This document shows, one piece after another, positions 1 to 25,637 of a DNA stretch of 64,000 nucleotides; within the stretch, counting starts at the first letter, position 1, and every line of letters starts with the position of its first letter. Location: NCBI GenBank assembly GCA_040830765.1, contig JBFOMH010000007.1:4563-68562 (forward strand), in the 5' to 3' direction. This DNA comes from Puniceicoccaceae bacterium. GTDB taxonomy: Bacteria; Verrucomicrobiota; Verrucomicrobiia; Opitutales; Oceanipulchritudinaceae. The position numbers and the translations under genes are program-made. Below the pieces are notes generated by a model that saw only the letters and a program-made list of their open reading frames with translations, had not been told where the DNA came from and searched no databases.

Positions 1-3000
1 CGCGTCCCCGTGTCGTCATAGGTTTCCTTGAACACCCAATTGAAATTATTCGACATGGAGAACCGGACAACGCGGTCATCGACGGTATCCGCATTGGTAT
101 CAATGGCAACGACCGTCTGCACTGCCCCGTCTCCACCATGAATCTGGGTCCAGCCGGAGACCCGTTCATTGTAGTCATCGATTCCGTTCATTCCATCGTC
201 ATCGACTCCGTTGCTGGCGGTCAGGCTTTGAACAGAAGAACCATTGTCCTGTGTGCCGACCAAAATGACCTTGTTGACAGGATCGTAGTCAACCGAACTT
301 GACTCGGTAACGCGAAGGTCGCCAACAATGGAAGTCCATTCGCGGGTCGGGCCCGGTAGGTTGAGCGGATTGGTCAAGCGGTAGATCCCACCGTCATCGG
401 CTTCGAGAAGGTTCCCGGCTGTATCAAAAGTAATGAATCGGGAATCGGCATGAGGCGTCGTATTATTGACAGTGCTGCCGACGATTTGCTCCCAGGCACT
501 CCCGGTGTAGCGGAAGACCCGGCCACCGCCACCTGACAATCCAACTGAGTTATTGGTCCGGCTGGGCTGACGATCCCCACCGACATAGATGACGCTCGAA
601 TTGTTTGGATCAACGGCAAGGGAGAAGTGCAGGTCACCTTGCCCGCCAGGATGGAGTCCGGTCTCGGTCGCTGGACTGCCATCGGTGGAAGTCGGTATGT
701 CGATTTCAAACCAGTTACTGCCGAAATCAGTCGACTTGAAGATATCATTCAGTCCGGTCCCGTTCTGACCATGGGTGTTGGGACCGACGATGCCGACATA
801 GACCGTACCGTCAGCGGCAGAGACAGCTAGCTTCATGCGCTTCTTGTCTTCGAAGTAGTTATCGATCCCATCCCCGTCAGAATCCGATCCGGATGCGATG
901 TTAACCGAATCCGGAGCCCCGCTGCTGGTGTTGATGGGAGACCAGGAGGTGCCTCCGTCATCAGACATAAAGACGCCCTGCTCGGGATTGACTGCGTAAA
1001 GCCGTACCGGTCGCACCGGAGCTGAGGTGCTTCCCGGATCAATTGCCAGGTCCGTGTAGTGCCCTGCCGGGAGACCGATGCCGGCTGAACCGGAAATCTT
1101 GGTCAAGGTATAGCTGGTCAGGGTCGTAGTCGCTGCCAGGTTGTCGATTTCAATTTCCAGCCGGAAAACGCCACCACGGTCATCAACGACATCATTATTG
1201 TCCTGGTCGAGATCCAGTGTGGAGATGAAAATGACCTGTTTGCCGGCGTTGGTCAGTTTCGTGGTCAGGACTCGGGTAATCTTCAGATTGAGGAGCTCCG
1301 TCCGCCCCAGTTCCATCCACGAGTCACCCCCGTCTGTTGTCAGGAGCAATCCCCGGGGGGGCGTTCCGGTGTAGGATGAACTGGTGCGGCCCGTTCCCGC
1401 GATCAGGACAAGCTCATCGTTGGATGTCATTGCCGTGACTTCGGCACCCGTGCTGTCCAGGGGACTCAATGAGAGGGTGCTGATTCCGAGGCTGCTGAAA
1501 TCGTCAGTCAGGTTTTCCCAATTTGTGCCATCTCCGCGCCAGACACCGCCCCCGACGGTTCCCACATAAATGAGGTTCGCATCGAACGGATGCTGGGCAA
1601 TGGCGTTGATGGCTCCCACCACCGGGCTGTAGAGGCTGGTGCTGCTAACCCCGGCAGGACCTTCTTCAGTCCAGGTCGGTATTCCGTCCTGGAGGAAGGG
1701 GAAACCGTTTTTCACATAATAGGCACTCCCTGTGAAGGCAGAGAAGTCAGCCGTTGTCGTGCTTTCTCCCCCGATAAATTCAATCCGACCGATATTGGTG
1801 ATGTCGATGGATAGGGTACCGACGGTCACCAGTGAATCGGTTGCCGTGATATCGGCGTTACGGACAATCCGAAAAGTGTTGTTCCCGGTACCGCCATCTA
1901 CGGTCCCCGAAACTTCTGCATCAACATTGAAATTGAAGAAGTCATTGGCGAGGCCTCCCGTCAGGTTTTCAATTTCCGTGAAAGAGAGATCAACATAGCC
2001 ATCAATTTTCAGGACTCCGGTGCCCTCTTCGGTCATCACCCATTCGGCGTCGGCAGGAATGGCTAATTCAAGTTCGTCGCCGGAACTCGGTACTGAGGAG
2101 AAAATGGAAGTGATGTCATTGTAGGTAATGTCATCCGCCGGATCATCCGCACCGGTCACGGTAACATCCGGGATGTTATTGCCGTTTGCATTGATGACGA
2201 GGAAGGTCAGGGGTCCCGTGTCGAGAATACCGTCAAGGATTCCAGCCACCGCTGCGCTGAGGTTTGCTGTAACAGGGTCGGAGGAGGTGGCATTGATGTT
2301 TCCACTCAGGAAGTGGCGGACGCCCGCTGTCAGGGTTTCCTCCATCACCGCAAGACCAGAATCATGCCCGAGACCAAGTAGGTGACCTACCTCATGCACG
2401 GTGGCCGTGAGGAGGTCCATCTTCCCGTAGGCGTCACTTGAGGTATCGGCCATCCGGTACCCGTCAAGGTTAAGGATTCCGAACTCGGAGGACTCGCCCG
2501 GGGTGGTGTCAACAAACCAGCCATGACCGGCGGCCGTCGGGTCGATAAGGACCATCCCGTCCCGGGCTTCCCCGAGGATGCCGTCCGGGAGATCGGTGAC
2601 GGTTGCGGTAAGGTTGTCGAGGACATCCGTCAGGCCGTTCGCAGCTGCGTAGGCCGACCAGGCCGAGATGGCTGCCGGGAGGATGCTGTCGAGGTCTTGC
2701 TGGGTCAGTGGTTCAACCTCTGCACCCGCATCGGCCGGACCACTGGCATAAAGAAAATCGCCTGCCCCAAAATGGGTCTCAGGCGACTCGAATAGTGAGA
2801 AATTGGCGTAATCCGGTGTGGACACGTTGAAGCCGGAACCGATGCTAAATTCGGACCCGGAAATGATGAATTCGGCTGTATCCCGCTGTTCAAGCAGGTC
2901 ACCGCCCATCGGGGGTCCGTTTGCGGCATGCAGGGTGGTTACTAATTCCTGCGAAAGTGGGTCGTAACGGTCGACCAGTGCAGTGACCTGAAGGAGGCCT

Positions 3001-3365
3001 GCTGAGCTGTCAATTGACGGCCCGTGGAGACTGTAAATAAGCGAAAATTCCTGTGCGGAAACGGCTGTTTCCTCGTTCCCCTCGACCTCAATTCCAGAAC
3101 TGGTGACGGCCTCCATGGGGTCGGCTTCGGCCACCGATTCCTGTCCCTGGAGGGCGGAATCCTCAACCCCGAAAAGGCCATCTTCGGCCACTTCTGCGGC
3201 CGCCGGGGAGGCGTCCATCTCGACAAAAATAGCATCATTTTCCTGGTGCTGATGGAGGAGAGCCTCGGCTGCTTTGGCACCAACAATACCGTCGCCAGAG
3301 AGAAGGAGACGGGGCTCCAGACTCTCCAGTTCAAACTGGTTTTTACGTGGTGGGTGCGAGCTCAA
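1..3365 (-). CDS. Giant LEPRxLL-leader secreted protein with metzincin (matrixin-like) domain and Asp-box/BNR beta-propeller; partial, runs off left edge (>1120 aa)
   Basis: Not in the ORF track because it has no stop inside the window. Hand translation from TTG at 3365 (in-frame TAA upstream at 3387-3389) gives LSSHPPRKNQFELESLEPRLLLSGDG. It contains GHGWFVDTTP...MDLLTATVHEVGHLLGLGH...VME (HExxHxxGxxH at 2364-2396) and Asp boxes TTDGGDSW and SDDGGTSW (942-965). Nearly all lines were checked and showed no in-frame stop. Confidence 0.9.
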   Translation of the reverse strand, partial: MSSHPPRKNQFELESLEPRLLLSGDGIVGAKAAEALLHQHQENDAIFVEMDASPAAAEVAEDGLFGVEDSALQGQESVAEADPMEAVTSSGIEVEGNEETAVSAQEFSLIYSLHGPSIDSSAGLLQVTALVDRYDPLSQELVTTLHAANGPPMGGDLLEQRDTAEFIISGSEFSIGSGFNVSTPDYANFSLFESPETHFGAGDFLYASGPADAGAEVEPLTQQDLDSILPAAISAWSAYAAANGLTDVLDNLTATVTDLPDGILGEARDGMVLIDPTAAGHGWFVDTTPGESSEFGILNLDGYRMADTSSDAYGKMDLLTATVHEVGHLLGLGHDSGLAVMEETLTAGVRHFLSGNINATSSDPVTANLSAAVAGILDGILDTGPLTFLVINANGNNIPDVTVTGADDPADDITYNDITSIFSSVPSSGDELELAIPADAEWVMTEEGTGVLKIDGYVDLSFTEIENLTGGLANDFFNFNVDAEVSGTVDGGTGNNTFRIVRNADITATDSLVTVGTLSIDITNIGRIEFIGGESTTTADFSAFTGSAYYVKNGFPFLQDGIPTWTEEGPAGVSSTSLYSPVVGAINAIAQHPFDANLIYVGTVGGGVWRGDGTNWENLTDDFSSLGISTLSLSPLDSTGAEVTAMTSNDELVLIAGTGRTSSSYTGTPPRGLLLTTDGGDSWMELGRTELLNLKITRVLTTKLTNAGKQVIFISTLDLDQDNNDVVDDRGGVFRLEIEIDNLAATTTLTSYTLTKISGSAGIGLPAGHYTDLAIDPGSTSAPVRPVRLYAVNPEQGVFMSDDGGTSWSPINTSSGAPDSVNIASGSDSDGDGIDNYFEDKKRMKLAVSAADGTVYVGIVGPNTHGQNGTGLNDIFKSTDFGSNWFEIDIPTSTDGSPATETGLHPGGQGDLHFSLAVDPNNSSVIYVGGDRQPSRTNNSVGLSGGGGRVFRYTGSAWEQIVGSTVNNTTPHADSRFITFDTAGNLLEADDGGIYRLTNPLNLPGPTREWTSIVGDLRVTESSSVDYDPVNKVILVGTQDNGSSVQSLTASNGVDDDGMNGIDDYNERVSGWTQIHGGDGAVQTVVAIDTNADTVDDRVVRFSMSNNFNWVFKETYDDTGT

Positions 3366-3660
3366 GAGAGGGGAAATGCAGCGAGATTAGTAGCTGGTAT
3401 AACCTACCGGCCTACTAGGGGTATCCCCTATTTTCGATATGAGGTCAATCCAATAGGAAATGCCACCCAATCAATTAGAGAATCTCCTACCATGTAGCGC
3501 CAGCAGAAGTATACCTAATGGATATTCTTCCGTTTTCGTGAAGATCAGACTTCCAGTTTTCACAAATAAGAACAAATTTTATGTAAATATAAATCGTTTC
3601 AAACGAATGGAATCCGGAATTCCAGACCCTGGAATGAACCGGGAAAGCCCTATTGAAATG

Positions 3661-6600
3661 CTAGTATAGGGAGTACAGATTATCCGCATCGACTGTGTCC
3701 GAAACCGGATTCAGGGGCTTGAACTCCACGAGCGACATTACGGAATAATCACGGTTGATGAAGTTCAGCGGAGGGGCAAATGAAGTGACGGCTGAGGACA
3801 GTTGCGGGGGCCAGAAATTCCCTACCACAACAGGCTGTGGATCGGTGGTCTGGAGCTCAACGGTGTGGGCGGAAATGGTGTAGAATTCAGCGGGATGATG
3901 GATCGCGGGCTGGACATTGGAATCGCTGGAATGGGATTCCGAATCCGGCGCTACGAGATCATCTAGAACCGTAACAGGTTGTGAAACACTTTCATCGATA
4001 GGTGCGGGGGATGCCTCGGAGGCGTAGGCAAAATCATCCGTCTGGAAGGTCACTTCATCAAAGGCGACCTGGCCATGATTGGCAAGAATACCGAAGCTGC
4101 CATCCGTCACCAGCGCATTAAAGGCATGGCCCAGAATGAGCTGTTCATTCCACATCACACTGACCGTACTGCCCTTCAAAGTGACCTCAATATCCTGGGC
4201 ACCCTTTCGCAAATCCCGATCGGCAAAGGCGGCATCAACGAAGAATCCCTTGGCGGTACGGTGGCCGATCAGCACCTCACCGGAATCCGAGGAGACAACT
4301 ACGAACTTGTAGTCCTCCAGCCCGTATTGGTCGAAGACAAACCCACCCTCACCGTTGGCCGTTAAGGTTGCTGCCAGACGGATCAGGGAAGCCGGGGAGA
4401 CGTCCAGCTGGATAAGGTCGATGGCGGCAACGTCGCCACCGAGGGAGGCTGTCACGAAGCCGTTTTCGGTCACCCATGAACCACTAATTGGTTCAGCAAA
4501 CAATCCGGATGAAACCGCCTCGAAGGTTTCCGTGAGGGTGAAGGTAACAGGCGGCCGGAGGCGCTGGACAATGACATTATCAATCATCGCCTTGGAGTTG
4601 TTGGCACCCAGACCGACCATGCCGTCCTTCAGCCCATGCGCGATCCCAAAGGCATCAATACGGAGTTCAAAGACATGGGAAAGGGAAACCTTGTTATCCA
4701 CGGTGAGGGTTACGGTGGACCCGTTGAGCGCAAGGAAGACATTATAATTAGTTCCGGCCTTGAGGGAACCGGGATAGACCGCCTGGACATCGACAATCCA
4801 TTCAGTTTCCGTACGATGGCCTATTTCCAGCTTGCTGTTGGAGACGTTGATACCGGCAAACTTGAAATCTGTATCACTTTGATAATCAAAGACAATGTAG
4901 GCGTTGCTCTTGTAGCCCTTGATGGGCTTCACCGGGTTGAGCGAGGCCAGCATTTCAAAGTAGTTGGGGATGTATTCATCCACATGATAGACGCTCAAGG
5001 CATCCCCTCCCCTGAATTCAGGCTCGACCAGATAGGCGCCTTTCTCGACAGACCAGACTCCACTGTCGGCAAAGAATCCGTCGGATGAACCATCATTGAA
5101 TCCGGCTGAGCGGAGGACGTCGCGCGGCCCGCCGGGGATATTGCCAGCCTGCGGATCCGCCGGGGCCCCTGTCTGGTCCTGCCAGGCAAAGTCCTTTTGC
5201 AGGACCATTCCCAGCTCACCATGAGGCTCGCCGTTGCGGGACGGATTAGGATTATTTTTGGTCGGCTCAGGAATAATAGCTCCAATGGCATCGACATAGC
5301 GGGTCGGATCGGCTCCATCAGCGGCAGACAAGGCATAGAGGAATTCCGGCAGGAAGGGCTGCAGGGTGCGGCTGACGGAGGCCTGACCAAACGGTGCATA
5401 GGGCACGAGATAGCTGTTGTACTCCCCTACCCAGTCGATGAGGCGGTCTCCGCCGGTATTGCCAATGAGGACATCACGCCCGGCCCCGCCATAGGCACGG
5501 TCCTCGTAGGTGGGATGGGTATCCGGTACCGTATTCACCTTGGTGCCGTCATCATTGATATCGTGCTTGTCATCGGCGTTCAAGAGGTCATTGCCCCAAC
5601 CGCCGTAGATGTTGTCACGACCGGTTCCACCGACAATCCAGTCGTTTCCGTTATCCCCGAAGATGGCGTCCTTGCCGTCGTCATAGACCTGCGGATAGGA
5701 CTCGACCTGCTGGCCGGTGGGCTTTGGTACTTCACCTGCCGGCCGGGTCACGCCAAGGGAGGCAGCGGACTCATCAAAGTTGAGGAGGAACTCGACTCCG
5801 CCCCCGTCGTCGAGCTTGTAAAGCTCACCAGTCGCCGGATCGAGGAGTATCTTGCGACGTGGATCGTATTCATCATAGAGGAAGAACTCGCCGGCCCGGA
5901 AGCGGTTGTTCAAGTGCTGCCCATCCTGGTCAACGGGATTGAAAGCAAGGACGTTGCCGGCCTCCAGCACAGCCAGGCTAACCGTATCACCCGGATTGAT
6001 GGGATTCGGCAGCTGGAATACGTTGTAGCCGAGGTTCAGGACGCCGTCGGGGTTTCCATCAAGATCAAAGGTCGGAACATAGGCATCCGGAAGGGCCCCG
6101 GCACCGGACATGGCATCGTCGCCCGAACCACCGTGCAGGAAGTCACTGCCAAGGCCACCGAAGATGATGTCGTCAGCGTAAGGAGTATTGGTATCGTCGT
6201 CGTGGAATTCGTCGTCCATGGCCATCCAGCCGTATTCATAGCTAAACGGAACAAGGTCAGCGGTCTTCTTGAGCGCGCCTTCAAGATGAATTCTGGCAAT
6301 CTGGATTTCACCCGGTGTGTAAATCAATTCTCCAAGCGCATCACCGTTGGAGTAGCGCGGGCTGGCATCCCTGTCGAGCAGGCCCGCGATCCCGTAAAGC
6401 GGTTCACCTTCGACACTGTTGCGGCTGGTCAGGAGGAGCCCATCGTCGCCAACAACTCCATCCTGTCCAGTGCCCCCGGCGATCCAATCGTTACCGTAGC
6501 CACCGACAATGTCATCGTCCTGTCCTTCACCATAGATGGCATCGCTGCCAGTCATTCCAAAGATATAGTCATCGCCAGCTTCACCATGGATGATGTCGGC

Positions 6601-12600: not shown

Positions 12601-15600
12601 GGTGATCAAGTGGAGGTTGGCGGCATAAGTGGCGCCATCGAGCCGGTTACCGGTAAGGGTGGCTTCCGGATTGAGGCTGCCGATATCGGCAAAGCCGAGG
12701 CGAGCTTCCCCGGTAGTACCGTTCTTGACATCAACAGCAAAGACAAGGTCCGCCCCACTATTCCCGCCAGGATCTGTCACATCAAGCTTGAGGAATCCGA
12801 GTTCCCCGTCGAAGGGCCCTGTTCCGGGCAGCTCGATCTTTAAATCAAGGTCGACATCATCGGCATCCGAGACGTCGATGTAGGCCCCATTGCCGAAGTC
12901 CACCCCAAAGGTGATCTCGATGCTCCAGTCAAAGGTGACCGTCAGGGGCGCTTCCATGTCAAAGAGCAGGTGGTCCGGCCCGATGTCAAAGTCGTCAAAG
13001 GTGAGGATTTGCGCCTGGGTGTCTGTGCGTCCCACCGTGAAAGTCCACTCGCGGTAGCGGTCCTCCGGAGGAACCGCCGGGCCAAGGTTGTTTGTCTGGA
13101 CAGGCCCCGAAATGAGATAGGCGGAAAGCGGCCCGGTGAAGGCGGCTGTGATGAGGGACTGGATGATTGTGTCAGGATCGGGATCCACCGCGTTCTCAAC
13201 CCCGTTCTTGATCGTCCGGGTAAGGGCCCGGCGGAAGTCCTCGATAAAGAGGATATCGGCCATTTGGTCGCCGATGAAGGGGAGATCAATACCAAGCACT
13301 TCCCCGGCCAGCTCGTCACTCAGGAGTTCCAGGTAGAGGTCAAGGGTGTCAATCGCCAGGAGGATGTTTTCAAAGGGATCATAGGGCACCACTTCTTCGG
13401 TAATGTCATCCACGATATCCCCGTAATCCGGCTCCGTGACGGTCAGGCCAGCAATGCCCCCACTGGCCGCATACTCACCAATAAAGTCGTTCGGTCCTTC
13501 ACCGCCATAGAACATGGGCAGGACGATTTCGATATCATCGGCAAGGATTAACGGGGCAATCCAGTCACCGTAGGCGACTGTATCGAGAAGTTGGCGACCC
13601 GAGCCACCGAAATCAAGACCCGGCAGAATGAAGACAAAACTGATCAAAACATCCCCGTCCTTGATGAACACCGACAAGGGGCCGACGTTGGAGCGGAAGA
13701 CCAGACCGAGACCTTTCTGACCTCCGGGAATGTCATATTCCTGGCCCTCTCCTATAACATCGATTCCGCCACCTATGTAAGAGGAATCGAGGAGATAAAT
13801 CTGCGAGGGTGAATTCAGATCGGTAGCGGTCTCCAGATGGACGGCCAGCGCTCCATAGACTTCCAGCACGCCGGCACTGGTAAGGTTGGGAGAGGTGGGA
13901 CCTGTGACAATGTCCAGACCCAGCTTGGTGCTGACCTCATTGAACAGGTTCATGCTCAGCAGCAATTCCGTGCTCCCGGTATCGTAATCCAGCTTGACGT
14001 AGTTGACAGGACCGCCACCGCCGTAGGGATCAACGCCGTCCGGAAGGCCGAAGGCTCCCCGCAAGGCCTGGGGAAGGTCCTGCAGGCGCAGCGCAGGCAG
14101 ACCCAATTCAAATCCCTCGGGACCGATGGCAAACTCGGCTGCTGCGAGGACTTCCTCAATATTGGCGGCACCCCGTTCGAACGCACCCGTCAGGTCGAGC
14201 AACTGCCCGACGCTCCGGTTGATGGCCGGCAGAAGTTTGTTCAATTCCGTGAAACTGGTATTCACGTCAAGGACCACATTAAGGAGGCCGTTGACCAGCC
14301 GCCGCACGCTGTCGTAATCGTAATCATCGAGGAAGCGGAGGTCGCCCAGGGAATTCAAGACCAAGCCCCCGGTGGAGGGTTCCGTCGGGACATAAGGATT
14401 CCCGAAATCAACCAGGACAAAGGGGACGGTATAGGGTGCATCATCGAGGGCCTTGAAGTCACTGTCGAAGGCAAGGTCATCAAACCCCTCCTGGACCTGC
14501 ACGACGAGGTTGAAGCTACCAAAGTTACCCTCGGGTTCCGGTATCCCGTTGACCTGGGCAACCGTTCCCGTGTCAGGTGCCACAATGACGTCATCATCCG
14601 AGAAGGTCCCTGTGACGTTGGACAGGAGCAGGTATCCGGTCGATCCGGAAGCGACAACCGTGGCAATGACGGCGATATCACCGGGATCCGCACCAATCAA
14701 AACATCTCCGGGGGTAAAATCGGTCGGTCCGAGCTCATTGTCATAATCCAGCTTAAGCAATTTCTCAACTGTGGCCGGATAGAGGGTGAAGTCCTGCTTC
14801 ATCAACTCTTCCAGGGTGATCTGGTTCTTGGGTCCGCCGGGATCGGCGAGGTCGGCCGAAATCTCAGCGGTCAAGCTCCCGTCGACATGAACATCCACCC
14901 CGACAATGCCATATAGTCCCGAACCGGGAACACCGGTCCCCGGGTTGACGGTAGCCATGGAGAGCCCGAGTTGCATTTCCGCATCCCTTACGAAGAAACG
15001 GCCATCCAGGCTGGTCAGGCCGATGTTACCGCCCTCGATCACGTTGGGATTCCCCACAAGCTCGGTTTCCGCAGGTGGCGGAAGCAAATCCGGCTCAGTC
15101 AGGAACAAGCCAAGGCCCAGCAGGGCTTCGGATCCGTTGATGGTTGAGATCTGGAAGGCTTCAGTCCCCCCCGTGATATCCTTCAAGCGCAGCCCCGAGT
15201 GGAGGAAGTTGTAGGCCGCCTCGAAGCTGAACGGAGCAATGGTGTTCAGGTAGCCGATAAGGTCCGCCATTGTCGGTCCCGGAACATCGTCGATGGATAC
15301 CAGGTGTTCGACGCCATCCCGGGTCTGGATGATAAAGTCCGCCTTGATGGCCACATCGCTGACCTCGGCAGGATATACAACCGGGTAGCCCAATTGTTGC
15401 TGGGAATACTCATTATTGACTTTGATGGTGAAGTCGGTGGATGGATCCAAGGCCGCAATGACAATGCGGGAGGTATCGTAGAGACTTCCGTCAGGCGGTG
15501 TGGTGCTGTCGTAATCAGCAACGAGGACGGCATCAAGGCCGGCATCGGCAATGGCATCGTTCACTTGATTGACCAAGTCCTCAATCGACCAGTACTTCTG

Positions 15601-18600
15601 GAAACCGGGAAGCACTATCTCCACCTCAGGACCGGCGTTCACCTCGACCGAGAAAGCGACATCGAGTAGGAACGGATAAAGGTACTCCCGTTCCGCACCC
15701 CCTAGCGGGACTATGCGAGGCACATCAAACTCCCGCGGGAAGGTGACTGCCTTCACCTCCATGAAGTCGAGGCCATCCTCGCCATTGAGTTCATCAAAGG
15801 AAGTGGTGTCAAAAATGGCAAATCCGGGAGGAGAGAGATCCACCCCCATGGTCATGGCCAAGCCAGTGCGGCCGGATATCGTCACGGAGACATCGGCAGC
15901 CGCAGCCGCGCTGTCAGGCGCGAGCTTGCTGAAGGGATCCAGCGGAACATTGAATTCGAAGGGCACCAGCCCGTCCGCCGTGTCTTCATTGCGGTCATTG
16001 TCGGTGACGATATTGCGACCGTATCCTTCGAGGACGAGTTGATAGGTCAATTCATTGTTACCTGAATGATAGGCAGCCTGAACCAGTCCCGGCCCCAGAA
16101 GAAAATCCAGCCGGTCCGCGAGGGACTGTGCCGTGAAGAAGGTGGTCACGAGGGTCTTCGTGCCATCGATAGTGGTCAGTTTCATCAACCGGTTTGTCCC
16201 ATCGGGTCCTTCAAGGCCGTCGACCCCGACATCAAACACCAGCATGTCAATCAGGCCACCATAGCGTTCACCATCCCCGTCGGCGTAGTTGAAAAACTGC
16301 GACAGGGTAGCATCGGCAAAGGGAATCTGGTAATCGCGGAAAACTTCCGTCTGGGAAAGTTGCTGCAGGGCGGTGCCGAGGCTGGAGATAAGGCCAATCA
16401 TGCTCTCGGCGTTGAGGATGCTGAAGTTGAGCAGCTCGCCAAAGTTGACCAGTCGGATTTCGTTACTGATGCCGCCCGGTCCCGGGACGGAGGATGCGGG
16501 AGAATCCTGGTCGGGAAGCCCGGGGTTGGGATCATACGTGAAGATCAGCCGGAATCTTCGTTCCACATCATCGTATTCTGCCTTGTCGGAGTTGAAGGGA
16601 TCAAAATTCGCCACAAGACGCGCATCCGTCACCTGGAAATTGTCGGGGGGACCAGTTGTGGCATCATCCAGTCCTGCATTAACCGTGACGGGCAGAAGGA
16701 TTTGCACGTTGGAACTACCGCCCTTGCTGGCCTCGAAGAGTTCCGCGGCCGGTACCAGCAGTTCAGAGTAGGTAATGCCCGCGTCAAAGGTCAGCGTGCC
16801 GGAAATCTCCAGGACGTCGTCAGGCGCACCTCCTTGCAACCAGATGGTGCCTCCCGAGTTGAGGGCATTGACACCAGACAGGCCCGCATAGTTGAGGGCG
16901 CGCTGCAAGTCGGCAACCATGTCATCCATGTCCTGGTTCTTCACCCGGACCTGGATGTCCCAGACCGAGTCGGAGGTGGCCTTGAGACGGACTTGACCAC
17001 TGGATTCGACTGCCTCCACACCCGTTCCACTGATAGCGGTATTGATGGCGGCAATCAGTCCCAGAAGGTCACGCCCCTCCGCGGCGCTGATAACATATGT
17101 CGCAAAGGTACCAAGGTTGGTACGCATGTGGAAGACTGCCGTGTCGTCGGTATAAGCATCCCCGTCATCGAAGTCCGTGTCGCCGACCGTCCCACCGGTC
17201 AATTGCACCGTGACTGCCTTGGGCCCGATAAATCCAAGCCCGGATTCAGCATAGGTACTGTCGATGGACAGGAGCGTGATTCCGGCCACCGAGCTGTCAC
17301 CGGAGATGTAGAGGTATCCACCGGATTGACCGGCGGTAATATTGGTAAAGAGTGCCGCATCCAGGGCATCCTGCAGGTCCACGACTAATTTATCGGTGTC
17401 GCCAAGGTTATCGCCCGTACTTACCTTGGTAACATTGACCTGGGCTTGATGAGAGGTCCCATCATCAAACCGTACCCGCAAGGTAAAGAGGGCATCTCCA
17501 CCAAATTCATTGGAATTGGCGATCAGGTCGGCCTCGAGGTCATCCACCAGGCTGGCGGTCAGGCCTTCACTGAAGCCAATATCCGTTTCACTGGGATCCG
17601 CAAAGCGCAGGCTGACCACGCCCGGGACTTCACCGTTCTCCGAGAGGAGGAAGGTTACGTTGGAGCTGTATTCAAAGGTCGCGTTGCCGCTAATGGCATT
17701 GAGGGGCAAGACTGCGGAACTGATCGTCTCGTTACCCATGCCAAGGGGATTGGTGGTCAGGGTCGGCCACAGCCCGAAGGAAAGGTGATTCACTCCGTCA
17801 ATGACGGCGAAAACAAGGTGATCGATATCAGCGTCCGCGAGGGCCAAATTGATAGCAGCCTGCAGACCAGCCTTGTTTACATAATCACCCGCCGGGACCA
17901 GTACCGGAGTGGATTCTCCCAGGTTGCCGAGGCGAAGGAAGAACCCGACATCATGCTCAAGGTTCCAACTGGGGATGGCGCTGTTGCCGGTCACATATCC
18001 AGCGGTCTTCTCCAGTCCAAACTGGGCATCGGTAAATCCGAGCAGGTCGGGATCATTAGCGTCAATCAAGTCTGTCTCAACCGTAGCGTTGAAGTTCAGG
18101 CTGCCGCCGGTGACTTCAGTTCCGAGGAAGCCGACATGCATATGGAAATCAAGCGGGGAAACATTTGACTGAGCGGATACGGTCAGGGGATCAGCCCAGC
18201 GAATGAAGAAGTCCTCCGCATCAATGACGTCATCCGAGGTCTGCCCTCCCGTATGGATGCCGAACTCAAAGCGGAAGCCGAGGGTGGTCGTTACCGGGAC
18301 CTTGACCTGCCCAGCGTTTTCCCATGTCCCGGTGAACGGGAACATCCGGAATGCATCCGCATCCAGGCCAAGATCAATTGGCATGTCCTGGGATACCGAA
18401 AGCTCGAAGCGCAGGACAAACGTCAGCTCGGCATCCGGATCTTCGGTGGTATCACCAGTGTTTATATCGACGATATTGAAGTGAACCTCCGGACCGGAGG
18501 GATCAAAGAAGCTGGTCCGGAAATCGGTCAGGTGCCGGTCCAGTCCATTGTCAAAGATCCCGGATCCCTTCAGGAAGTCTACAATATCCCCGGTTGTGGC

Positions 18601-19473
18601 AGGATGGGAATTCAGGTAATCAACCAACGGAGTAAAGAGCCATGCGGTGAGGAACTCGACGGCATCCGTCCGATCGTCCCCATTGGTATCCAAAGCGTCC
18701 AGCACCTGTTCATCTTCATCCGAAGGATCGAAGAATGCATCCGGATACATGGTACCGGTGAATCCATCCGCGTTGGTGTCGACAGGCAGGCTGAGCAGGT
18801 CCTTCACTGTGGGCGACTCAAATAACTTGATTCCCCCGGTGTCCTCTCCTGTCTGCAATAGAATCGGCATCCGGTCGCCGAGCAATTCTTCCCCATTGAT
18901 GAATTGGCTGATTTGGTAACCCAGGACAGCGATCCCATCCGCCAAACCCTCAGTTGCCGCGTCCGCAGGCACATCAACGGAGGTCTGTGAAACGGCGGCA
19001 AGATCAGCAGAATCCTTTTCAATCACTTGATAATAGGCAGACTCCAAAGAAGGCGGACCATTGCCAGCATGCAGTGTCGTCACAAGTTCACTGGGCCAGC
19101 GGGCAGAAAGGTCCACCGGTCCGGAGGTTAATAGAATTTCCCGGGAGGGATTGAAAAGTCTTGCTGAGAAAGCCCCATGGAGTTCCAGACCTTGTTCCAC
19201 TTCGTCATTTGCTTCCGGCTCAATGCTGACTGAAGCGTCGACCCCAGGCAGCGCTTCGTCTTCGACATTGTCAAAGATGCCCTCACTTCGCTCGGAGCCT
19301 TCAGAATCCACAACAAACGATGTCTCGGCATAAGCAACCTCAACGGACAAGGCTGTATCCTCCACAGGTCCATCGAACTCCGCCAGTATGCCCATTCCAT
19401 CTGCGGATAGCAGCAGCCGAGGCTCCAAAGCCTCCAGCTTGCAAGGCCCCATGGACTGGTTGCGGCTTCCCAT
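3661..19473 (-). CDS. Giant (5270 aa) LEPRxLL-leader RTX-type Ca-binding surface protein/adhesin with C-terminal lectin-like (ConA/LamG-like) domains
   Basis: N-terminal KLEALEPRLLLSADG; dozens of GGxGxDxxxG nonapeptides (about 5440-11180); very acidic composition; two related beta-rich C-terminal modules (SGVWSVEKG...DFKFAGIN and SGSWVTENG...DYKFVVVS). Confidence 0.9.
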   Translation of the reverse strand: MGSRNQSMGPCKLEALEPRLLLSADGMGILAEFDGPVEDTALSVEVAYAETSFVVDSEGSERSEGIFDNVEDEALPGVDASVSIEPEANDEVEQGLELHGAFSARLFNPSREILLTSGPVDLSARWPSELVTTLHAGNGPPSLESAYYQVIEKDSADLAAVSQTSVDVPADAATEGLADGIAVLGYQISQFINGEELLGDRMPILLQTGEDTGGIKLFESPTVKDLLSLPVDTNADGFTGTMYPDAFFDPSDEDEQVLDALDTNGDDRTDAVEFLTAWLFTPLVDYLNSHPATTGDIVDFLKGSGIFDNGLDRHLTDFRTSFFDPSGPEVHFNIVDINTGDTTEDPDAELTFVLRFELSVSQDMPIDLGLDADAFRMFPFTGTWENAGQVKVPVTTTLGFRFEFGIHTGGQTSDDVIDAEDFFIRWADPLTVSAQSNVSPLDFHMHVGFLGTEVTGGSLNFNATVETDLIDANDPDLLGFTDAQFGLEKTAGYVTGNSAIPSWNLEHDVGFFLRLGNLGESTPVLVPAGDYVNKAGLQAAINLALADADIDHLVFAVIDGVNHLSFGLWPTLTTNPLGMGNETISSAVLPLNAISGNATFEYSSNVTFLLSENGEVPGVVSLRFADPSETDIGFSEGLTASLVDDLEADLIANSNEFGGDALFTLRVRFDDGTSHQAQVNVTKVSTGDNLGDTDKLVVDLQDALDAALFTNITAGQSGGYLYISGDSSVAGITLLSIDSTYAESGLGFIGPKAVTVQLTGGTVGDTDFDDGDAYTDDTAVFHMRTNLGTFATYVISAAEGRDLLGLIAAINTAISGTGVEAVESSGQVRLKATSDSVWDIQVRVKNQDMDDMVADLQRALNYAGLSGVNALNSGGTIWLQGGAPDDVLEISGTLTFDAGITYSELLVPAAELFEASKGGSSNVQILLPVTVNAGLDDATTGPPDNFQVTDARLVANFDPFNSDKAEYDDVERRFRLIFTYDPNPGLPDQDSPASSVPGPGGISNEIRLVNFGELLNFSILNAESMIGLISSLGTALQQLSQTEVFRDYQIPFADATLSQFFNYADGDGERYGGLIDMLVFDVGVDGLEGPDGTNRLMKLTTIDGTKTLVTTFFTAQSLADRLDFLLGPGLVQAAYHSGNNELTYQLVLEGYGRNIVTDNDRNEDTADGLVPFEFNVPLDPFSKLAPDSAAAAADVSVTISGRTGLAMTMGVDLSPPGFAIFDTTSFDELNGEDGLDFMEVKAVTFPREFDVPRIVPLGGAEREYLYPFLLDVAFSVEVNAGPEVEIVLPGFQKYWSIEDLVNQVNDAIADAGLDAVLVADYDSTTPPDGSLYDTSRIVIAALDPSTDFTIKVNNEYSQQQLGYPVVYPAEVSDVAIKADFIIQTRDGVEHLVSIDDVPGPTMADLIGYLNTIAPFSFEAAYNFLHSGLRLKDITGGTEAFQISTINGSEALLGLGLFLTEPDLLPPPAETELVGNPNVIEGGNIGLTSLDGRFFVRDAEMQLGLSMATVNPGTGVPGSGLYGIVGVDVHVDGSLTAEISADLADPGGPKNQITLEELMKQDFTLYPATVEKLLKLDYDNELGPTDFTPGDVLIGADPGDIAVIATVVASGSTGYLLLSNVTGTFSDDDVIVAPDTGTVAQVNGIPEPEGNFGSFNLVVQVQEGFDDLAFDSDFKALDDAPYTVPFVLVDFGNPYVPTEPSTGGLVLNSLGDLRFLDDYDYDSVRRLVNGLLNVVLDVNTSFTELNKLLPAINRSVGQLLDLTGAFERGAANIEEVLAAAEFAIGPEGFELGLPALRLQDLPQALRGAFGLPDGVDPYGGGGPVNYVKLDYDTGSTELLLSMNLFNEVSTKLGLDIVTGPTSPNLTSAGVLEVYGALAVHLETATDLNSPSQIYLLDSSYIGGGIDVIGEGQEYDIPGGQKGLGLVFRSNVGPLSVFIKDGDVLISFVFILPGLDFGGSGRQLLDTVAYGDWIAPLILADDIEIVLPMFYGGEGPNDFIGEYAASGGIAGLTVTEPDYGDIVDDITEEVVPYDPFENILLAIDTLDLYLELLSDELAGEVLGIDLPFIGDQMADILFIEDFRRALTRTIKNGVENAVDPDPDTIIQSLITAAFTGPLSAYLISGPVQTNNLGPAVPPEDRYREWTFTVGRTDTQAQILTFDDFDIGPDHLLFDMEAPLTVTFDWSIEITFGVDFGNGAYIDVSDADDVDLDLKIELPGTGPFDGELGFLKLDVTDPGGNSGADLVFAVDVKNGTTGEARLGFADIGSLNPEATLTGNRLDGATYAANLHLITKTVSILPVMTSDFIFDWALPTTDVDDLEGDAVTPGIQLIKLDGMEFDALYAVQEALGQPLQKIAEFIEPFMPVIDILTAEIPILSDLAGEPFTLIDLAGLLSDDVDTRFIEAVADILKLIGEIGQLGSLPTLILGDLTLFDIGTPGSNYFNPDPLTGDPLGAEALLLTTPGLNIDSQFSTLISGSSFLTDLGTGNLVDGLTMPIFDPSLGALEIIKMFVNQDATIVEYELPPLSVGFEYLQVFPVWGPLAVSIEINFSFTLDLHSVGFDTYGIRRWAQTDFRNGALILDGFFFSDGETDTSDDPEIIFQFGLVGAAELNLIIARGGVGGGVNALITFDWNDSVADGHVHISEIYGNIEMDGLLGAFDVGGKLTFELFAFLEVSLLGIEEEFPITPEITLLDFGVDFERLPRLGTEEGGVLYLNMGPNAQDRLNGDTSDGNEDFTVTYVSDGKVKVSSSNLGVTSGQEYEGVHEIIAYGGEGNDTITFKNFDADTSDGGSQITGYVFGGVGDDTIVFDGTTASSDTEGFIIIGGLGNDTLKGGPANDVIYGNEGNDTVWGNGGYDILFGDDGRFATTYISSRIQETDGADNMDGGKGDDVVIGAGGSDILRGGDGIDLILGDGGRFAYTMSGEHVDVAGLLPAAYVPVPISSYVEPAIISAGIDAVEDAVLDRIRAANLGLGGNDEIHGDGGNDLVLGGTGDDTIEGNGGDDILLGGKGFDKISGGANNDSIYGGDQADVLYGNDGDDVMAGGSGNDFMHGDGDNDVMKGDTGADVMFGDAGDDQVFGQTEPDLLFGGVDDDLVVGGSSNDIMFGDDGLIAKLATDLDPTVVSIGIGNAALLVGQFHDQDIRTLDLIITDVVNGDGDDILSGDAGDDIMLGGGGNDLFGGDVDPRLPVANTPAPEDVTPISEDVIIGDGGKVTFNERRFRSIETIIGAVDVDANVDGHPFDDIIYGDNGQDYILGGRGSDYLFGGHGKVVDITEPNFEDALGAFRGPTDPEASDNDIIVGDNGELLFADDTHEPNFGHLEMVRTTDEDDVTGGHEYVEGELDNDVIFGGVNGSVDVLFGSDGQDIILGDNGEIDFSLDEALGAGIPDLNTIDLIRSYRDGLGGEDWISGDQGDDVLIGGTAGDLMYGDDATASHGSLDGEDIMLGDNGKVELINDPSYDFDSPDAYLNDITNFGRLYVQVAASEYPTTVDLIATIDDIDEGDPDFDELSEVEAIGGPDTMSGNAKADIMLGGVNNGGTDFMYGDRVVPDSTTIADDADDIMLGDNGLLDFTYAADTDRTTLDLIQSFEDGLGGTDDMSGNKGEDVAIGGTGDDTIYGDDDDASAASADMDDILIGDNADIFLVAVGSASGGDLKVVLDAAVKTIVTTDEDDDDPLDTGGVDTISGNAGGDIIAGGVEGDYLYGDRASPTASTTADDGDDIILGDNGSWEWLSTGRLDEIYGIDIDANNPELFAKFDPAEADTDLTTLDLVTTEQPRNGGRDWIYGDEGSDLIFGGTDLDTIYGDDADEVDFFAVATLNNDVMFGDHGRLYPQYARWYEDPADTALVPALVDGHVFHARNYFAIHTAEADAGEGDVMHGEEGDDIMLGQQGDDRMWGGSDDDDMTGGHNVSGDQGIGGGYDELGETNAGIPEVTVSLNPSNGDLKMNDLMDGGTGNDSMAGDNTIIWRRGDVANPRFRDLTGDQLYTTGPDTITTNITSDKQLDPDQSTGRDVQLVDHDDGIEAIANGRYGQDVMAGGPGADIMYGQLGDDLMQGDGAIESIQNVGVDEEGDPFVSHELEVVDDTTKTPDTDETLYFNIPEAVTDGDDYMEGNGGNDLMYGGLGQDDMIGGSSALFGLDSVNAALLTLTAEQMRPDGSDIIFGGAGVDIDYNDIGDATWYDDIATTYDEQVILTDPTGHANDADFIMGDNANVYRIVETNADPQAPDVFRTYNYDESFTTDEGSEDRGEIRIIPRAMEQLDYTLGGADYATLGQDYTPSGAAIIDGVADNGLADIIHGEAGDDYIFGMTGSDAIYGEGQDDDIVGGYGNDWIAGGTGQDGVVGDDGLLLTSRNSVEGEPLYGIAGLLDRDASPRYSNGDALGELIYTPGEIQIARIHLEGALKKTADLVPFSYEYGWMAMDDEFHDDDTNTPYADDIIFGGLGSDFLHGGSGDDAMSGAGALPDAYVPTFDLDGNPDGVLNLGYNVFQLPNPINPGDTVSLAVLEAGNVLAFNPVDQDGQHLNNRFRAGEFFLYDEYDPRRKILLDPATGELYKLDDGGGVEFLLNFDESAASLGVTRPAGEVPKPTGQQVESYPQVYDDGKDAIFGDNGNDWIVGGTGRDNIYGGWGNDLLNADDKHDINDDGTKVNTVPDTHPTYEDRAYGGAGRDVLIGNTGGDRLIDWVGEYNSYLVPYAPFGQASVSRTLQPFLPEFLYALSAADGADPTRYVDAIGAIIPEPTKNNPNPSRNGEPHGELGMVLQKDFAWQDQTGAPADPQAGNIPGGPRDVLRSAGFNDGSSDGFFADSGVWSVEKGAYLVEPEFRGGDALSVYHVDEYIPNYFEMLASLNPVKPIKGYKSNAYIVFDYQSDTDFKFAGINVSNSKLEIGHRTETEWIVDVQAVYPGSLKAGTNYNVFLALNGSTVTLTVDNKVSLSHVFELRIDAFGIAHGLKDGMVGLGANNSKAMIDNVIVQRLRPPVTFTLTETFEAVSSGLFAEPISGSWVTENGFVTASLGGDVAAIDLIQLDVSPASLIRLAATLTANGEGGFVFDQYGLEDYKFVVVSSDSGEVLIGHRTAKGFFVDAAFADRDLRKGAQDIEVTLKGSTVSVMWNEQLILGHAFNALVTDGSFGILANHGQVAFDEVTFQTDDFAYASEASPAPIDESVSQPVTVLDDLVAPDSESHSSDSNVQPAIHHPAEFYTISAHTVELQTTDPQPVVVGNFWPPQLSSAVTSFAPPLNFINRDYSVMSLVEFKPLNPVSDTVDADNLYSLY

Positions 19474-19601
19474 AATCGCAATTCCCTGCTGCCGGAATAG
19501 CGACCACTTTGCATGGGGGGCGGTGCAAATATGGTCTTGCGCCCGTTTGAGTAGAGAGAGGGAAAACCCTTACACCCAAATAAAGTATGGGTCAATATAA
19601 T

Positions 19602-19617
19602 TTTACTTTAAAGTAAA
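19602..19617. promoter_or_regulatory. Perfect 16-bp palindrome TTTACTTTAAAGTAAA, candidate operator upstream of the giant RTX gene
   Basis: Seen directly. It lies just upstream (minus sense) of a TTGACC -35-like hexamer at 19590-19595. Function is inferred. Confidence 0.4.
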
Positions 19618-19630
19618 TTAACCTTGCCGC

Positions 19631-23769: not shown

Positions 23770-23772
23770 GAT

Positions 23773-25635: not shown

Positions 25636-25637
25636 GA

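What the first reader, a model, noticed from the sequence alone, without database searches (positions are those of the whole stretch)
2910..19437. Two unrelated giant proteins share a two-part N-terminal leader (LExLEPRLLLS ... ELVTTLHAxNGPP)
Seen by hand translation: both proteins have L-E-x-L-E-P-R-L-L-L-S-(A/G)-D-G with the LEPR leucine at exactly residue 16 (19428 and 3320, the latter from a TTG start). After an unrelated acidic spacer, both carry a near-identical second motif: ELVTTLHAGNGPP (19051-19089, residue 129) and ELVTTLHAANGPP (2910-2948, residue 140). Beyond it the proteins diverge completely, and neither has a Sec signal peptide. Established: LEPRxLL is a known signature of giant PVC proteins, with unknown function. 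I do not recall the second motif being described. Inference: motif 1 is a recognition signal and motif 2 a processing or retention site, analogous to the LapA retention module or an Asn-Gly autocleavage site.
Basis: partly seen in the sequence, partly recalled or inferred. Interest (0 to 1): 0.88.

Follow-up and report, generated by a model that had tools for sequence, protein, structure and literature searches.

The report
Long three-part LEPR export leader
Two otherwise unrelated huge proteins begin with the same modular, mostly disordered 140-150-residue leader, whose last element is an undescribed helix-plus-NGPP motif found only in such leaders in Verrucomicrobiota; it most likely marks cargo of an ABC-less, SecA-like/TolC-type export machine encoded next door.

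Summary
The 5270-aa RTX protein (3661-19473, -) and its 2642-aa neighbour (start 3365, -) align only over residues 1-141 and 1-152. The similarity stops exactly at NGPP.

The leader has three motifs, not two:
- M1: FxLExLEPRxLLS[AG]DG, about 15 residues from the start.
- M2: D[IL]F[DE], about 53 residues after M1.
- M3: QLVxTLxAA-N-G-P-P, about 135 residues after M1.

The spacer is acidic and predicted disordered. M3 is the only predicted helix.

M1 is already known (NCBIfam LEPR-8K; Studholme 2004). M2 and M3 match no Pfam or NCBIfam model, and I found no paper naming them.

M3 occurs in about half of Verrucomicrobiota LEPR proteins and in at least 78 distinct protein clusters. Six-frame scans found it only inside such proteins. 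It scored in 0 of 301 Planctomycetota genomes, although 33 of them have LEPR proteins. M3 is therefore a lineage-specific add-on, not part of the universal signal.

LEPR proteins co-occur almost perfectly with the upstream TolC / HlyD / GAF-HlyD / M50-HlyD / short-SecA cassette, and often start directly after it.

- LapA/LapG: no LapG gene and no folded retention domain.
- Asn-Gly autocleavage: both N and G vary.

The function of M3 is unresolved. A leader-passenger junction element for docking or processing is my best reading.

The parts
3661..19473 (-). Giant cargo protein, 5270 aa, with RTX repeats in the C-terminal half and a long LEPR leader at the N-terminus
   Evidence: ORF; RTX repeats (PF00353); LEPR-8K at 28.9 bits
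19396..19437 (-). M1 of the giant protein: LEALEPRLLLSADG (residues 13-26)
   Evidence: M1 logo from 97 leaders
19249..19281 (-). M2 of the giant protein: GIFDNVEDEAL (residues 65-75)
   Evidence: [IL]F lies at a median of +53 from M1 in 86 of 103 leaders, against 23% expected by chance
19051..19098 (-). M3 of the giant protein: WPS-ELVTTLHAGNGPP (residues 126-141). Predicted amphipathic helix 126-137, capped by NGPP
   Evidence: AF2 helix with pLDDT 70-79; M3 profile hit at 34.4 bits
3..3365 (-). Second cargo protein (2642 aa in the full contig; runs off the window), with a weak matrixin-like Zn-protease match after the leader. Starts at TTG 3365
3288..3329 (-). M1 of the second protein: LESLEPRLLLSGDG (residues 13-26)
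   Evidence: 30.7 bits
3150..3179 (-). M2 of the second protein: GLFGVEDSAL (residues 63-72)
2910..2948 (-). M3 of the second protein: ELVTTLHAANGPP (residues 140-152)
   Evidence: 34.4 bits
19631..21661 (-). Short SecA paralogue (676 aa): DEAD motor, preprotein cross-linking domain and second P-loop domain, with no wing/scaffold match
21613..23769 (-). RRE-like domain + M50 (site-2-type) metalloprotease with intact HEFGH and NANPLLRFDG motifs + HlyD-type adaptor (718 aa)
23773..25635 (-). GAF-HlyD adaptor
25638..26393 (-). Short HlyD adaptor
26326..28197 (-). TolC-type outer-membrane factor (OEP)

Best explanation
Both proteins carry a 'long LEPR leader', a modular N-terminal export leader. 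Its parts, in order:
1. A short tip containing K/R.
2. M1, FxLExLEPRxLLS[AG]DG. This is the already known LEPR-XLL address, about 15 residues from the start.
3. An acidic, intrinsically disordered spacer (median net charge -18) containing M2, D[IL]F[DE], about 53 residues after M1.
4. M3, a three-turn amphipathic helix ([MLIV]xx[QE]LVxTLxAA) stopped by an invariant N/Q-G/A-P-P. It lies about 135 residues after M1 and never closer than about 105. The unrelated passenger domains begin directly after it.

The leader marks cargo of the cassette encoded directly upstream: TolC-type channel, HlyD, GAF-HlyD, RRE-like/M50-protease-HlyD and short SecA. This cassette has no ABC transporter.

Shown here: the leader anatomy, the specificity of M3 for LEPR proteins, its lineage limits, and the genomic linkage of LEPR proteins to the cassette.

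Inferred:
- M1 is the universal address, read in the cytoplasm by the RRE-like domain and/or the SecA' clamp.
- M3 is a Verrucomicrobiota-specific junction element: a docking helix and/or processing point that sets where the leader ends and the passenger begins.
- The minimum length of the spacer reflects the distance the leader must span in the envelope-crossing conduit.
For: Anatomy
-. Spacing from M1 to M3 in the set found by LEPR first (n = 28): median 133.5, IQR 123.5-142, minimum 112.
- AF2 with a 44-sequence alignment: mean pLDDT 58; the only regular element is a helix at residues 126-137, which is M3.
- The two window proteins are alike only up to NGPP.

Generality of M3
- About 12 of 17 readable LEPR N-termini from related genomes.
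- 14 of 26 from the phylum sample.
- 78 of the top 150 cluster representatives (clusters at 50% identity); 171 hits at E <= 1e-3 among 1.84 billion proteins.

Specificity of M3
- Six-frame profile scans of 41 and of 301 Verrucomicrobiota genomes hit only LEPR-type giant ORFs.

Link to the cassette
- A LEPR ORF starts directly after the SecA' gene in 7 related genomes and in many of the 80 cassette loci.
- Phylogenetic profile in 301 genomes: both present 22, LEPR only 1, M50 orthologue only 3, neither 275. Fisher p = 4e-29.
- Cassette gene order is conserved across phyla.
- The M50 catalytic motifs are intact.
- The M50 N-terminal domain folds like RiPP leader-recognition elements: TbiB1 and lasso-peptide B1, each solved with its leader bound, at Foldseek probability 0.99-1.0 and target-normalised TM 0.66-0.71.
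- No canonical T1SS ABC transporter in this genome.
Against: - No experiment exists on the cassette or on the leader. Export, direction of transport and any cleavage are all inferred.
- M3 is missing from about half of Verrucomicrobiota LEPR proteins, including some encoded directly after SecA' (L016, L067, L099, L100).
- M3 is essentially absent from Planctomycetota, although the cassette there is orthologous. The core machine therefore does not need M3.
- Fold evidence for the RRE-like domain is below formal significance: Foldseek E = 0.02-0.07 and Pfam PqqD E = 0.25.
- The spacing statistic has an upper tail to 248. In the larger set it is also biased by the profile used to find the sequences.
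- The phylogenetic profiles are not corrected for shared ancestry.
Confidence: 0.55

Rival explanations
1. M3 is the leader-peptidase site. The M50 protease of the cassette, or a secreted protease such as the co-encoded LEPR-metalloprotease, cuts at or next to A-A|N-G-P-P. This removes a pro-leader of about 140 residues during or after export, by analogy with double-glycine leaders cut by the C39 domain of peptidase-containing ABC transporters.
For: - M3 lies exactly at the leader-passenger boundary, and similarity ends at PP.
- It has small residues at A-A/G preceded by an amphipathic helix.
- The M50 catalytic motifs are intact.
- An RRE-like leader reader is fused to the protease.
- JGI names the family 'putative peptide zinc metalloprotease'.
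Against: - M3 scored in 0 of 301 Planctomycetota genomes and is missing from about half of Verrucomicrobiota LEPR proteins. The M50 protease, by contrast, is conserved in every cassette locus examined.
- The strongest conservation (PP, N/Q) lies on the putative P' side. That is unusual for a leader-cleavage site.
- No C39 domain and no canonical T1SS ABC transporter.
- No N-terminal proteomics data.
Confidence: 0.22
2. The long leader is a tether, working like LapA but with different parts. M1 stays bound at the inner-membrane machine, the acidic spacer stays threaded through the adaptor/TolC conduit, and M3 sits at the outer exit where the folded passenger begins. Release would come from M50 cleavage near M1, perhaps controlled through the GAF adaptor.
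For: - There is a lower bound of about 105-112 residues between M1 and M3. This is roughly the length needed to cross a tripartite conduit of about 300 Å as an extended chain. That figure is my own knowledge and estimate.
- The spacer is disordered, strongly acidic and poorly conserved in sequence.
- The protease and a ligand-sensing GAF domain are built into the adaptors.
- The passengers look like adhesins or enzymes of surface type.
Against: - No LapG homologue, no LapB-type ABC transporter and no globular retention domain.
- Planctomycetota LEPR proteins have short leaders with no room for a tether.
- A SecA-type motor is expected to feed the chain N-terminus first, which fits poorly with an N-terminus that stays behind.
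Confidence: 0.15
3. M3 is a spontaneous Asn-Gly (or Asn-Pro-type) self-cleavage or deamidation site.
For: N-G is the commonest pair in M3 (N in 88 of 101 copies, G in 72 of 101).
Against: - Q replaces N in 13 of 101 copies, and A or P replaces G in 29 of 101. Only PP is invariant.
- The conserved 12-residue helix upstream has no role in such chemistry.
Confidence: 0.03
4. M3 has no function of its own. It is a remnant of a leader cassette spread by duplication and recombination among paralogous giant genes.
For: - All six LEPR proteins of this genome share the leader layout.
- M3 is lineage-restricted.
Against: - M3 stays nearly invariant across at least 78 clusters (clustered at 50% identity), while the flanking spacer is barely alignable: mean column identity 13%.
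- Its position relative to M1 is constrained.
- It precedes many unrelated passenger domains.
Confidence: 0.05

Closest known systems
LEPR-XLL N-terminal domain (NCBIfam NF012209 'LEPR-8K'), equal to the planctomycete N-terminal export-signal motif RRLxxExLExRxLLA of Studholme, Fuerst & Bateman 2004 (Pfam PF07595, as cited in PMC8567305)
   Same: M1 of both proteins matches above the curated cut-off. It sits at the extreme N-terminus of large surface-type proteins that lack a Sec signal.
   Different: The known motif is about 24 residues long. Here it is followed by an acidic spacer of about 120 residues carrying two further conserved motifs (M2, M3). No model or paper that I could find describes these, and Planctomycetota LEPR proteins lack them.
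Conserved 'secondary SecA_DEAD' locus (SecA_DEAD + Peptidase_M50/HlyD + GAF/HlyD + HlyD ± OEP) of Kamneva, Poudel & Ward 2015 (PMC4452313)
   Same: The five genes upstream of the giant gene are this locus, in the same order as in 80 loci from many phyla.
   Different: The 2015 paper names neither a cargo nor a signal. Here LEPR-leader proteins co-occur with the locus and are encoded directly after it.
Double-glycine leaders cut by C39 peptidase-containing ABC transporters, and RiPP leaders read by RRE (PqqD-like) domains
   Same: In both cases an N-terminal leader contains a short amphipathic recognition helix ending in small residues. A peptidase and a leader-reading domain are built into the exporter. 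The M50 N-terminal domain resembles RRE structures solved with a leader bound.
   Different: - The cargo is thousands of residues long, not a peptide.
- The protease is an M50 metalloprotease, not C39.
- There is no ABC transporter.
- The conserved PP follows the small residues.
- Cleavage is not demonstrated.
LapA-type giant adhesins (LapBCE type 1 secretion, N-terminal retention module, LapG/LapD-controlled release)
   Same: Giant RTX-bearing surface protein with a special N-terminus. Export through a TolC-type conduit. A protease and a small-ligand sensor domain are associated with the system.
   Different: - No LapG, LapD or LapB homologues.
- The N-terminus is disordered and acidic, not a folded plug.
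- There is no TAAG site in the LapG context.

Membership tests
LEPR-XLL / LEPR-8K N-terminal domain (NF012209) | Match to the 24-position model above 17 bits, located at the N-terminus | tested here: met
   28.9 and 30.7 bits at residues 11-32. All six copies in the genome were found.
LEPR-XLL / LEPR-8K N-terminal domain (NF012209) | No classical Sec hydrophobic core in the leader | tested here: met
   The highest 19-residue Kyte-Doolittle mean in the leaders has a median of 0.99 and a 95th percentile of 1.6. No dedicated signal-peptide predictor was available.
Cargo of the Kamneva 2015 SecA_DEAD/M50-HlyD cassette | Encoded next to the cassette | tested here: met
   Cassette at 19631-28197(-), directly upstream of the giant gene. 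The same layout occurs in 7 related genomes and in many of the 80 loci.
Cargo of the Kamneva 2015 SecA_DEAD/M50-HlyD cassette | Co-occurrence of the leader and the cassette across genomes | tested here: met
   301 genomes: both 22, LEPR only 1, M50 only 3, neither 275; p = 4e-29. 41 related genomes: p = 2.5e-5. Not corrected for phylogeny.
Cargo of the Kamneva 2015 SecA_DEAD/M50-HlyD cassette | Export depends on the cassette | not testable with these tools
   Needs genetics or biochemistry.
LapA-type retention module with LapG site | LapG-type periplasmic cysteine protease (PF06035) in the genome | tested here: not met
   No match in the 97%-complete genome. The control genome Caulobacter matched.
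LapA-type retention module with LapG site | Folded N-terminal plug domain | tested here: not met
   AF2 mean pLDDT 58, pTM 0.20, a single 12-residue helix.
LapA-type retention module with LapG site | Type 1 secretion ABC transporter (LapB/HlyB/PrtD type) | tested here: not met
   Best scores were 238 bits against a cut-off of 510 (PrtD) and 350 against 725 (HlyB).
Asn-Gly self-cleavage site | Invariant Asn-Gly pair | tested here: not met
   N 88 / Q 13; G 72 / A 22 / P 7, out of 101 copies.
Double-glycine leader with C39 peptidase ABC exporter | G-G/A/S at positions -2/-1, and a C39 domain on an ABC exporter | tested here: not met
   M3 has A-A/G followed by a conserved N-G-P-P. The ABC exporters in the genome match the HlyB model only from position 127 or later, so they show no N-terminal peptidase domain.
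RRE (PqqD-like) leader recognition | Winged-helix RRE fold in a pathway protein | tested here: inconclusive
   AF2 of M50 residues 1-135: pLDDT 78.9, with strands followed by three helices. Foldseek hits to TbiB1 + leader, lasso-peptide B1 + leader, LynD, ThcOx and CteB have probability 0.9-1.0 and target-normalised TM 0.62-0.71, but E = 0.04-0.1. Pfam PqqD E = 0.25 across the full model length.
RRE (PqqD-like) leader recognition | Direct binding of a leader motif | not testable with these tools
   Only single-chain structure prediction was available.

The most novel reading that the evidence does not exclude
The long LEPR leader is a molecular ruler for a so far uncharacterised, ABC-less secretion pathway of diderm bacteria. 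M1 is held by the RRE/SecA' entry complex. The acidic spacer of at least about 105 residues spans the whole adaptor/TolC conduit. The M3 helix-PP element is the checkpoint at which the passenger is committed, docked or cut free. This would make it the first defined multi-part N-terminal signal for exporting proteins of 5,000-20,000 residues.
Probability: 0.25. Interest if true: 0.85.

Novelty: new variant of a known kind. Interest (0 to 1): 0.6.

Why it matters
How bacteria export proteins of 5,000 to over 20,000 residues that have neither a Sec signal nor a type 1 ABC transporter is an open question. The cassette was noticed in 2015 and the LEPR motif in 2004, but neither has been studied experimentally.

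A defined leader with three short motifs, a length rule and a clear lineage contrast turns this question into testable constructs:
- Leader-reporter fusions.
- Motif and spacer-length mutants.
- Binding assays of motif peptides with the RRE-like domain and with SecA'.
- Mapping of the mature N-terminus.

The lineage contrast is between long leaders in Verrucomicrobiota and short ones in Planctomycetota.

The M3 profile is also a practical annotation tool. It finds the true N-termini of giant cargo genes in fragmented assemblies. In one case it found cargo that the LEPR-8K model had missed (G218).

Tried and rejected
- Word-indexed homologue search with leader residues 1-160 gave only 3 hits, because E-values scale to 5.8 billion sequences. 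Its only use was to name the taxon (Puniceicoccales / Oceanipulchritudo).
- Pfam and NCBIfam scans of the leaders at E <= 1 or 10 showed nothing on M2 or M3. PF07595 itself did not register.
- Text searches for LEPR-XLL, LEPRxLL, LEPR-8K, LEPRLLLS, ANGPP and SecA_DEAD+HlyD found nothing relevant beyond Kamneva 2015.
- The West-Roberts 2023 preprint on giant genes concerns SecA domains inside Omnitrophota giant proteins. That is a different situation.
- I looked for a cassette component whose presence tracks M3 and found none. OEP, HlyD, GAF-HlyD, M50 and SecA' are present whether or not the adjacent cargo has M3.
- AF2 of the leader did not show M1, M2 and M3 packing into a small domain. It predicts disorder plus one helix.
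- SREBP/site-2-protease analogy (DRSR-ILLC resembling LEPR-LLLS, and an Asn-Pro helix breaker). I considered this from memory only. The leader has no transmembrane segment, so I did not pursue it.
- My 'next ORF after SecA'' heuristic picked spurious ORFs in high-GC loci. I relied on the HMM hits instead.
Full report
**1. What is in the window**

The minus strand carries, in order of transcription:
- a TolC-type OEP gene (26326-28197);
- a short HlyD adaptor (25638-26393);
- a GAF-HlyD adaptor (23773-25635);
- an M50-peptidase/HlyD fusion (21613-23769);
- a 676-aa SecA paralogue with DEAD motor, preprotein cross-linking domain and second P-loop, but no wing/scaffold match (19631-21661);
- a 5270-aa ORF with RTX repeats in its C-terminal half (3661-19473);
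- after about 295 bases, a second large ORF starting at TTG 3365. It runs off the window and is 2642 aa in the full contig. It has a weak matrixin-like metalloprotease match.

The window is C7:4563-68562 of a 3.99-Mb draft genome that is 97% complete. Names attached to the closest database proteins place it in Puniceicoccaceae / Oceanipulchritudo, Verrucomicrobiota.

**2. Check of the observation**

- Giant protein: LEALEPRLLLSADG with the LEPR leucine at residue 16, and ELVTTLHAGNGPP at residues 129-141 (19051-19089).
- Second protein: LESLEPRLLLSGDG, and ELVTTLHAANGPP at residues 140-152 (2910-2948).

Both N-termini pass NCBIfam NF012209 (LEPR-8K) at 28.9 and 30.7 bits against a cut-off of 17. 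BLASTP of the two proteins finds a single significant alignment, residues 1-152 against 1-141 (E = 2e-9). It ends at NGPP, and the next best alignment has E = 0.079.

**3. The leader has three motifs, not two**

The genome encodes six LEPRLLLS proteins, of 15,021, 8,811, 6,957, 5,937+, 5,270 and 2,642 aa.
- Four have a clear M3: three read ELVTTLHA[AG]NGPP and one reads LLLTLKAGQGPP.
- Two paralogues have a shortened variant, (E)xSLxPRAPP, at the same distance from M1.

I pooled 103 leaders from related genomes, a phylum sample and a database search. The logos are as follows.
- M1: [KR]..F.LE.LEPR[LVI]LLS[AG]D[GP]. Its first leucine lies at a median of residue 15.
- M2: D[IL]F[DE], a median of 53 residues after M1 (IQR 49-56). 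It is present in 86 of 103 leaders, against 23% expected from composition.
- M3: [MLIV][TAS][DQE][QE]-L-[VT]-[ET]-T-L-[HRNK]-A-A-[N88/Q13]-[G72/A22/P7]-P-P. PP is invariant, and conservation vanishes directly after it.

The spacer is acidic: D+E 18%, K+R 2.7%, median net charge -18. It is barely alignable, with a mean column identity of 13%.

AlphaFold2 with a 44-sequence alignment predicts disorder (mean pLDDT 58, pTM 0.20). The only regular element is a helix at residues 126-137, which is M3 up to the NGPP cap (pLDDT 70-79). Hydrophobic residues at positions -12, -8, -7, -4 and -1 relative to the Asn give this helix one hydrophobic face.

**4. Spacing**

In the set found by LEPR first, which is not biased towards M3 spacing (n = 28), M1 to M3 has these values:
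- median 133.5 residues;
- IQR 123.5-142;
- minimum 112;
- a tail to 248.

In the profile-found set (n = 75) the range is 105-194, with a median of 139. The sharp lower limit, together with free sequence, suggests a minimum-length requirement. The comparison with the length of a tripartite conduit is my own estimate and was not measured.

**5. How general and how specific is M3?**

- Related genomes. LEPR-8K hits occur in 13 of 41 genomes. About 12 of 17 readable N-termini have M3.
- Verrucomicrobiota sample. 23 of 301 genomes have LEPR hits. 14 of 26 fetched non-own N-termini have M3.
- Database search. A profile of the six own leaders against 1.84 billion cluster representatives found 171 proteins at E <= 1e-3. 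Of the best 150, 147 have M1 and 78 have both M1 and M3. Of the 43 that extend at least 300 aa past M1, 37 have M3. This last figure is biased, because the query contains M3.
- Reverse test. An 18-column M3 profile was searched in six frames.
  - In the 41 related genomes, all 16 hits down to E = 3e-3 fall inside LEPR ORFs.
  - In the 301 phylum genomes, all 22 hits with E <= 7e-4 fall inside giant ORFs. Of these, 21 are LEPR-8K-positive. The other is an 18,984-aa ORF that starts directly after an M50/SecA' pair, which the LEPR-8K model had missed.

I found no convincing M3 outside such a protein.

**6. Lineage limits**

The M3 profile found nothing in ten cassette-bearing genomes of other phyla. 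It also found nothing in 301 Planctomycetota genomes, although 33 of those genomes hold 116 LEPR-8K hits.

Reading twelve of these N-termini shows mostly short leaders in which the passenger follows M1 directly. One has a diverged M3-like copy, SELVELELAGQPPP.

M3, with the spacer and M2, therefore defines a 'long leader' subclass that is characteristic of Verrucomicrobiota, including Kiritimatiellae and Victivallales loci. It is not part of the universal LEPR signal.

**7. Link to the cassette**

Kamneva, Poudel & Ward 2015 (PMC4452313) described the SecA_DEAD + M50/HlyD + GAF/HlyD + HlyD ± OEP locus by computer analysis. They proposed a secretion-related role and named no cargo or signal.

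Evidence gathered here:
- LEPR and close orthologues of the M50-HlyD protein co-occur in the 301 Verrucomicrobiota genomes: both 22, LEPR only 1 (a weak hit), M50 only 3, neither 275. Fisher p = 4e-29.
- In the 41 related genomes the counts are 12, 1, 6 and 22, p = 2.5e-5. These tests ignore shared ancestry.
- In seven related genomes a LEPR ORF starts about 2.2 kb after the M50 gene, that is, directly after SecA'.
- In 80 cassette loci from Verrucomicrobiota, Desulfobacterota, Spirochaetota, Bacteroidota, Nitrospirota, Chlorobi, Proteobacteria, Planctomycetota and others, the gene order OEP-HlyD-GAFHlyD-M50-SecA' is conserved.
- 18 of those loci hold an M1-positive ORF, usually the gene after SecA'. 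Eight hold M3, always in the M1-positive ORF.
- No cassette component tracks the presence of M3.
- The genome has no type 1 ABC transporter above curated cut-offs and no LapG. The cassette is therefore the obvious route for its RTX-bearing giant proteins.

Other agents of this scan reached the same cassette-cargo link on other genomes. That is not independent evidence, and I re-tested it here.

**8. Candidate readers of the leader**

- The M50 domain keeps HEFGH and NANPLLRFDG.
- Its N-terminal 135 residues, folded with 28 homologues, give a confident model: pLDDT 78.9, pTM 0.65, strands followed by three helices.
- The nearest solved folds include RiPP leader-recognition elements crystallised with their leaders: TbiB1 (5v1v), lasso-peptide B1 (6jx3), LynD, ThcOx and CteB. 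Foldseek probability is 0.9-1.0 and target-normalised TM is 0.62-0.71, but E-values are only 0.04-0.1. Pfam PqqD matches over its full length at E = 0.25. This is suggestive, not proven.
- SecA' keeps its preprotein cross-linking domain.

**9. Interpretation**

Shown:
- a conserved, ordered, three-motif leader;
- M3 as a helix-PP element restricted to LEPR cargo;
- a minimum-length spacer;
- tight genomic coupling of LEPR proteins to the cassette.

Inferred:
- M1 is the universal address.
- M3 is a lineage-specific junction element for docking and/or processing.

Because the orthologous machine in Planctomycetota works with cargo that lacks M3, M3 is unlikely to be the general M50 cleavage site. 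If M50 cuts a universal site, M1 is the better candidate.

- LapA/LapG: no LapG, no plug domain, no ABC transporter.
- Asn-Gly self-cleavage: both N and G vary.

A tether-through-the-channel model and a pro-leader cleavage model both remain open, and I could not separate them by computation.

**10. Novelty**

M1 is in print: Studholme 2004, as cited in PMC8567305, and NF012209. The cassette is in print (Kamneva 2015).

I found no description of M2, M3, the long/short leader dichotomy or the spacing rule in Pfam, NCBIfam or the searchable literature. The library does not cover subscription journals, and I did not open the 2004 paper itself.

Noticed in passing
window 3-3365(-); L003, L004, L014: The LEPR protein with the weak matrixin-like match and the ...AAGHGWFVD... 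stretch is the gene directly after SecA' in three related genomes (G004, G012, G007); the relative L004 also carries an HEMGHVLGL motif. In this genome the giant RTX gene sits between them. A conserved, co-exported metalloprotease is a candidate extracellular processing enzyme for the other cargo proteins.
   Followed up: partly
L025, L028, L033, L037, L046, L099, L107, L016 (N-terminal 150-250 aa): Many LEPR proteins carry a recurring module, '(F/V/I)(A/S)PGNSPG(I/V)', about 30-60 residues after the leader, followed by 'IEIGG...G..YDQ'-type repeats. It appears to be a shared first passenger domain and was not identified.
   Followed up: no
own genome C8 (5937+ aa) and C19 (8811 aa): Two paralogous LEPR giants have a shortened M3 variant (ELENSLQPRAPP / SGSLMPRAPP) at the normal distance from M1. 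A shared 'ITHGFQMGFEG' domain follows it.
   Followed up: no
window 19330-19400 and other leaders, about 25-30 residues after M1: There is a weaker fourth conserved patch, [ST]xA[IV]xV[ED] (for example TALSVEVAYAE, NDAIFVEMD, LSAIIVVDD), between M1 and M2.
   Followed up: no
Verrucomicrobiota phylum sample: A second, distant M50-HlyD subfamily (24-33% identity, E 1e-43 to 1e-71) is present in about 44 further genomes that have no LEPR hits. It is presumably a paralogous system with other cargo.
   Followed up: no
L062:14291-15109 and 15298-21207: In one Verrucomicrobiales MAG, the ORF directly after SecA' starts with a good LEPR motif but turns into Arg-rich nonsense after about 60 residues and stops at 273 aa. 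A second LEPR ORF with a weak M3 follows. This may be a frameshifted or decayed cargo gene, or an assembly error.
   Followed up: no
L051-L130 from non-PVC phyla (e.g. L055, L056, L059, L098): Cassette loci in Spirochaetota, Desulfobacterota, Nitrospirota and Gammaproteobacteria show no LEPR-type ORF within 10 kb. The exception is one Desulfobacterales MAG (L067). Their cargo and signal remain unknown.
   Followed up: partly
own genome C5:130170-175233(-): A 15,021-aa LEPR protein with a perfect M3 (RELVTTLHAANGPP) is the largest gene of this genome. It lies away from the cassette.
   Followed up: no
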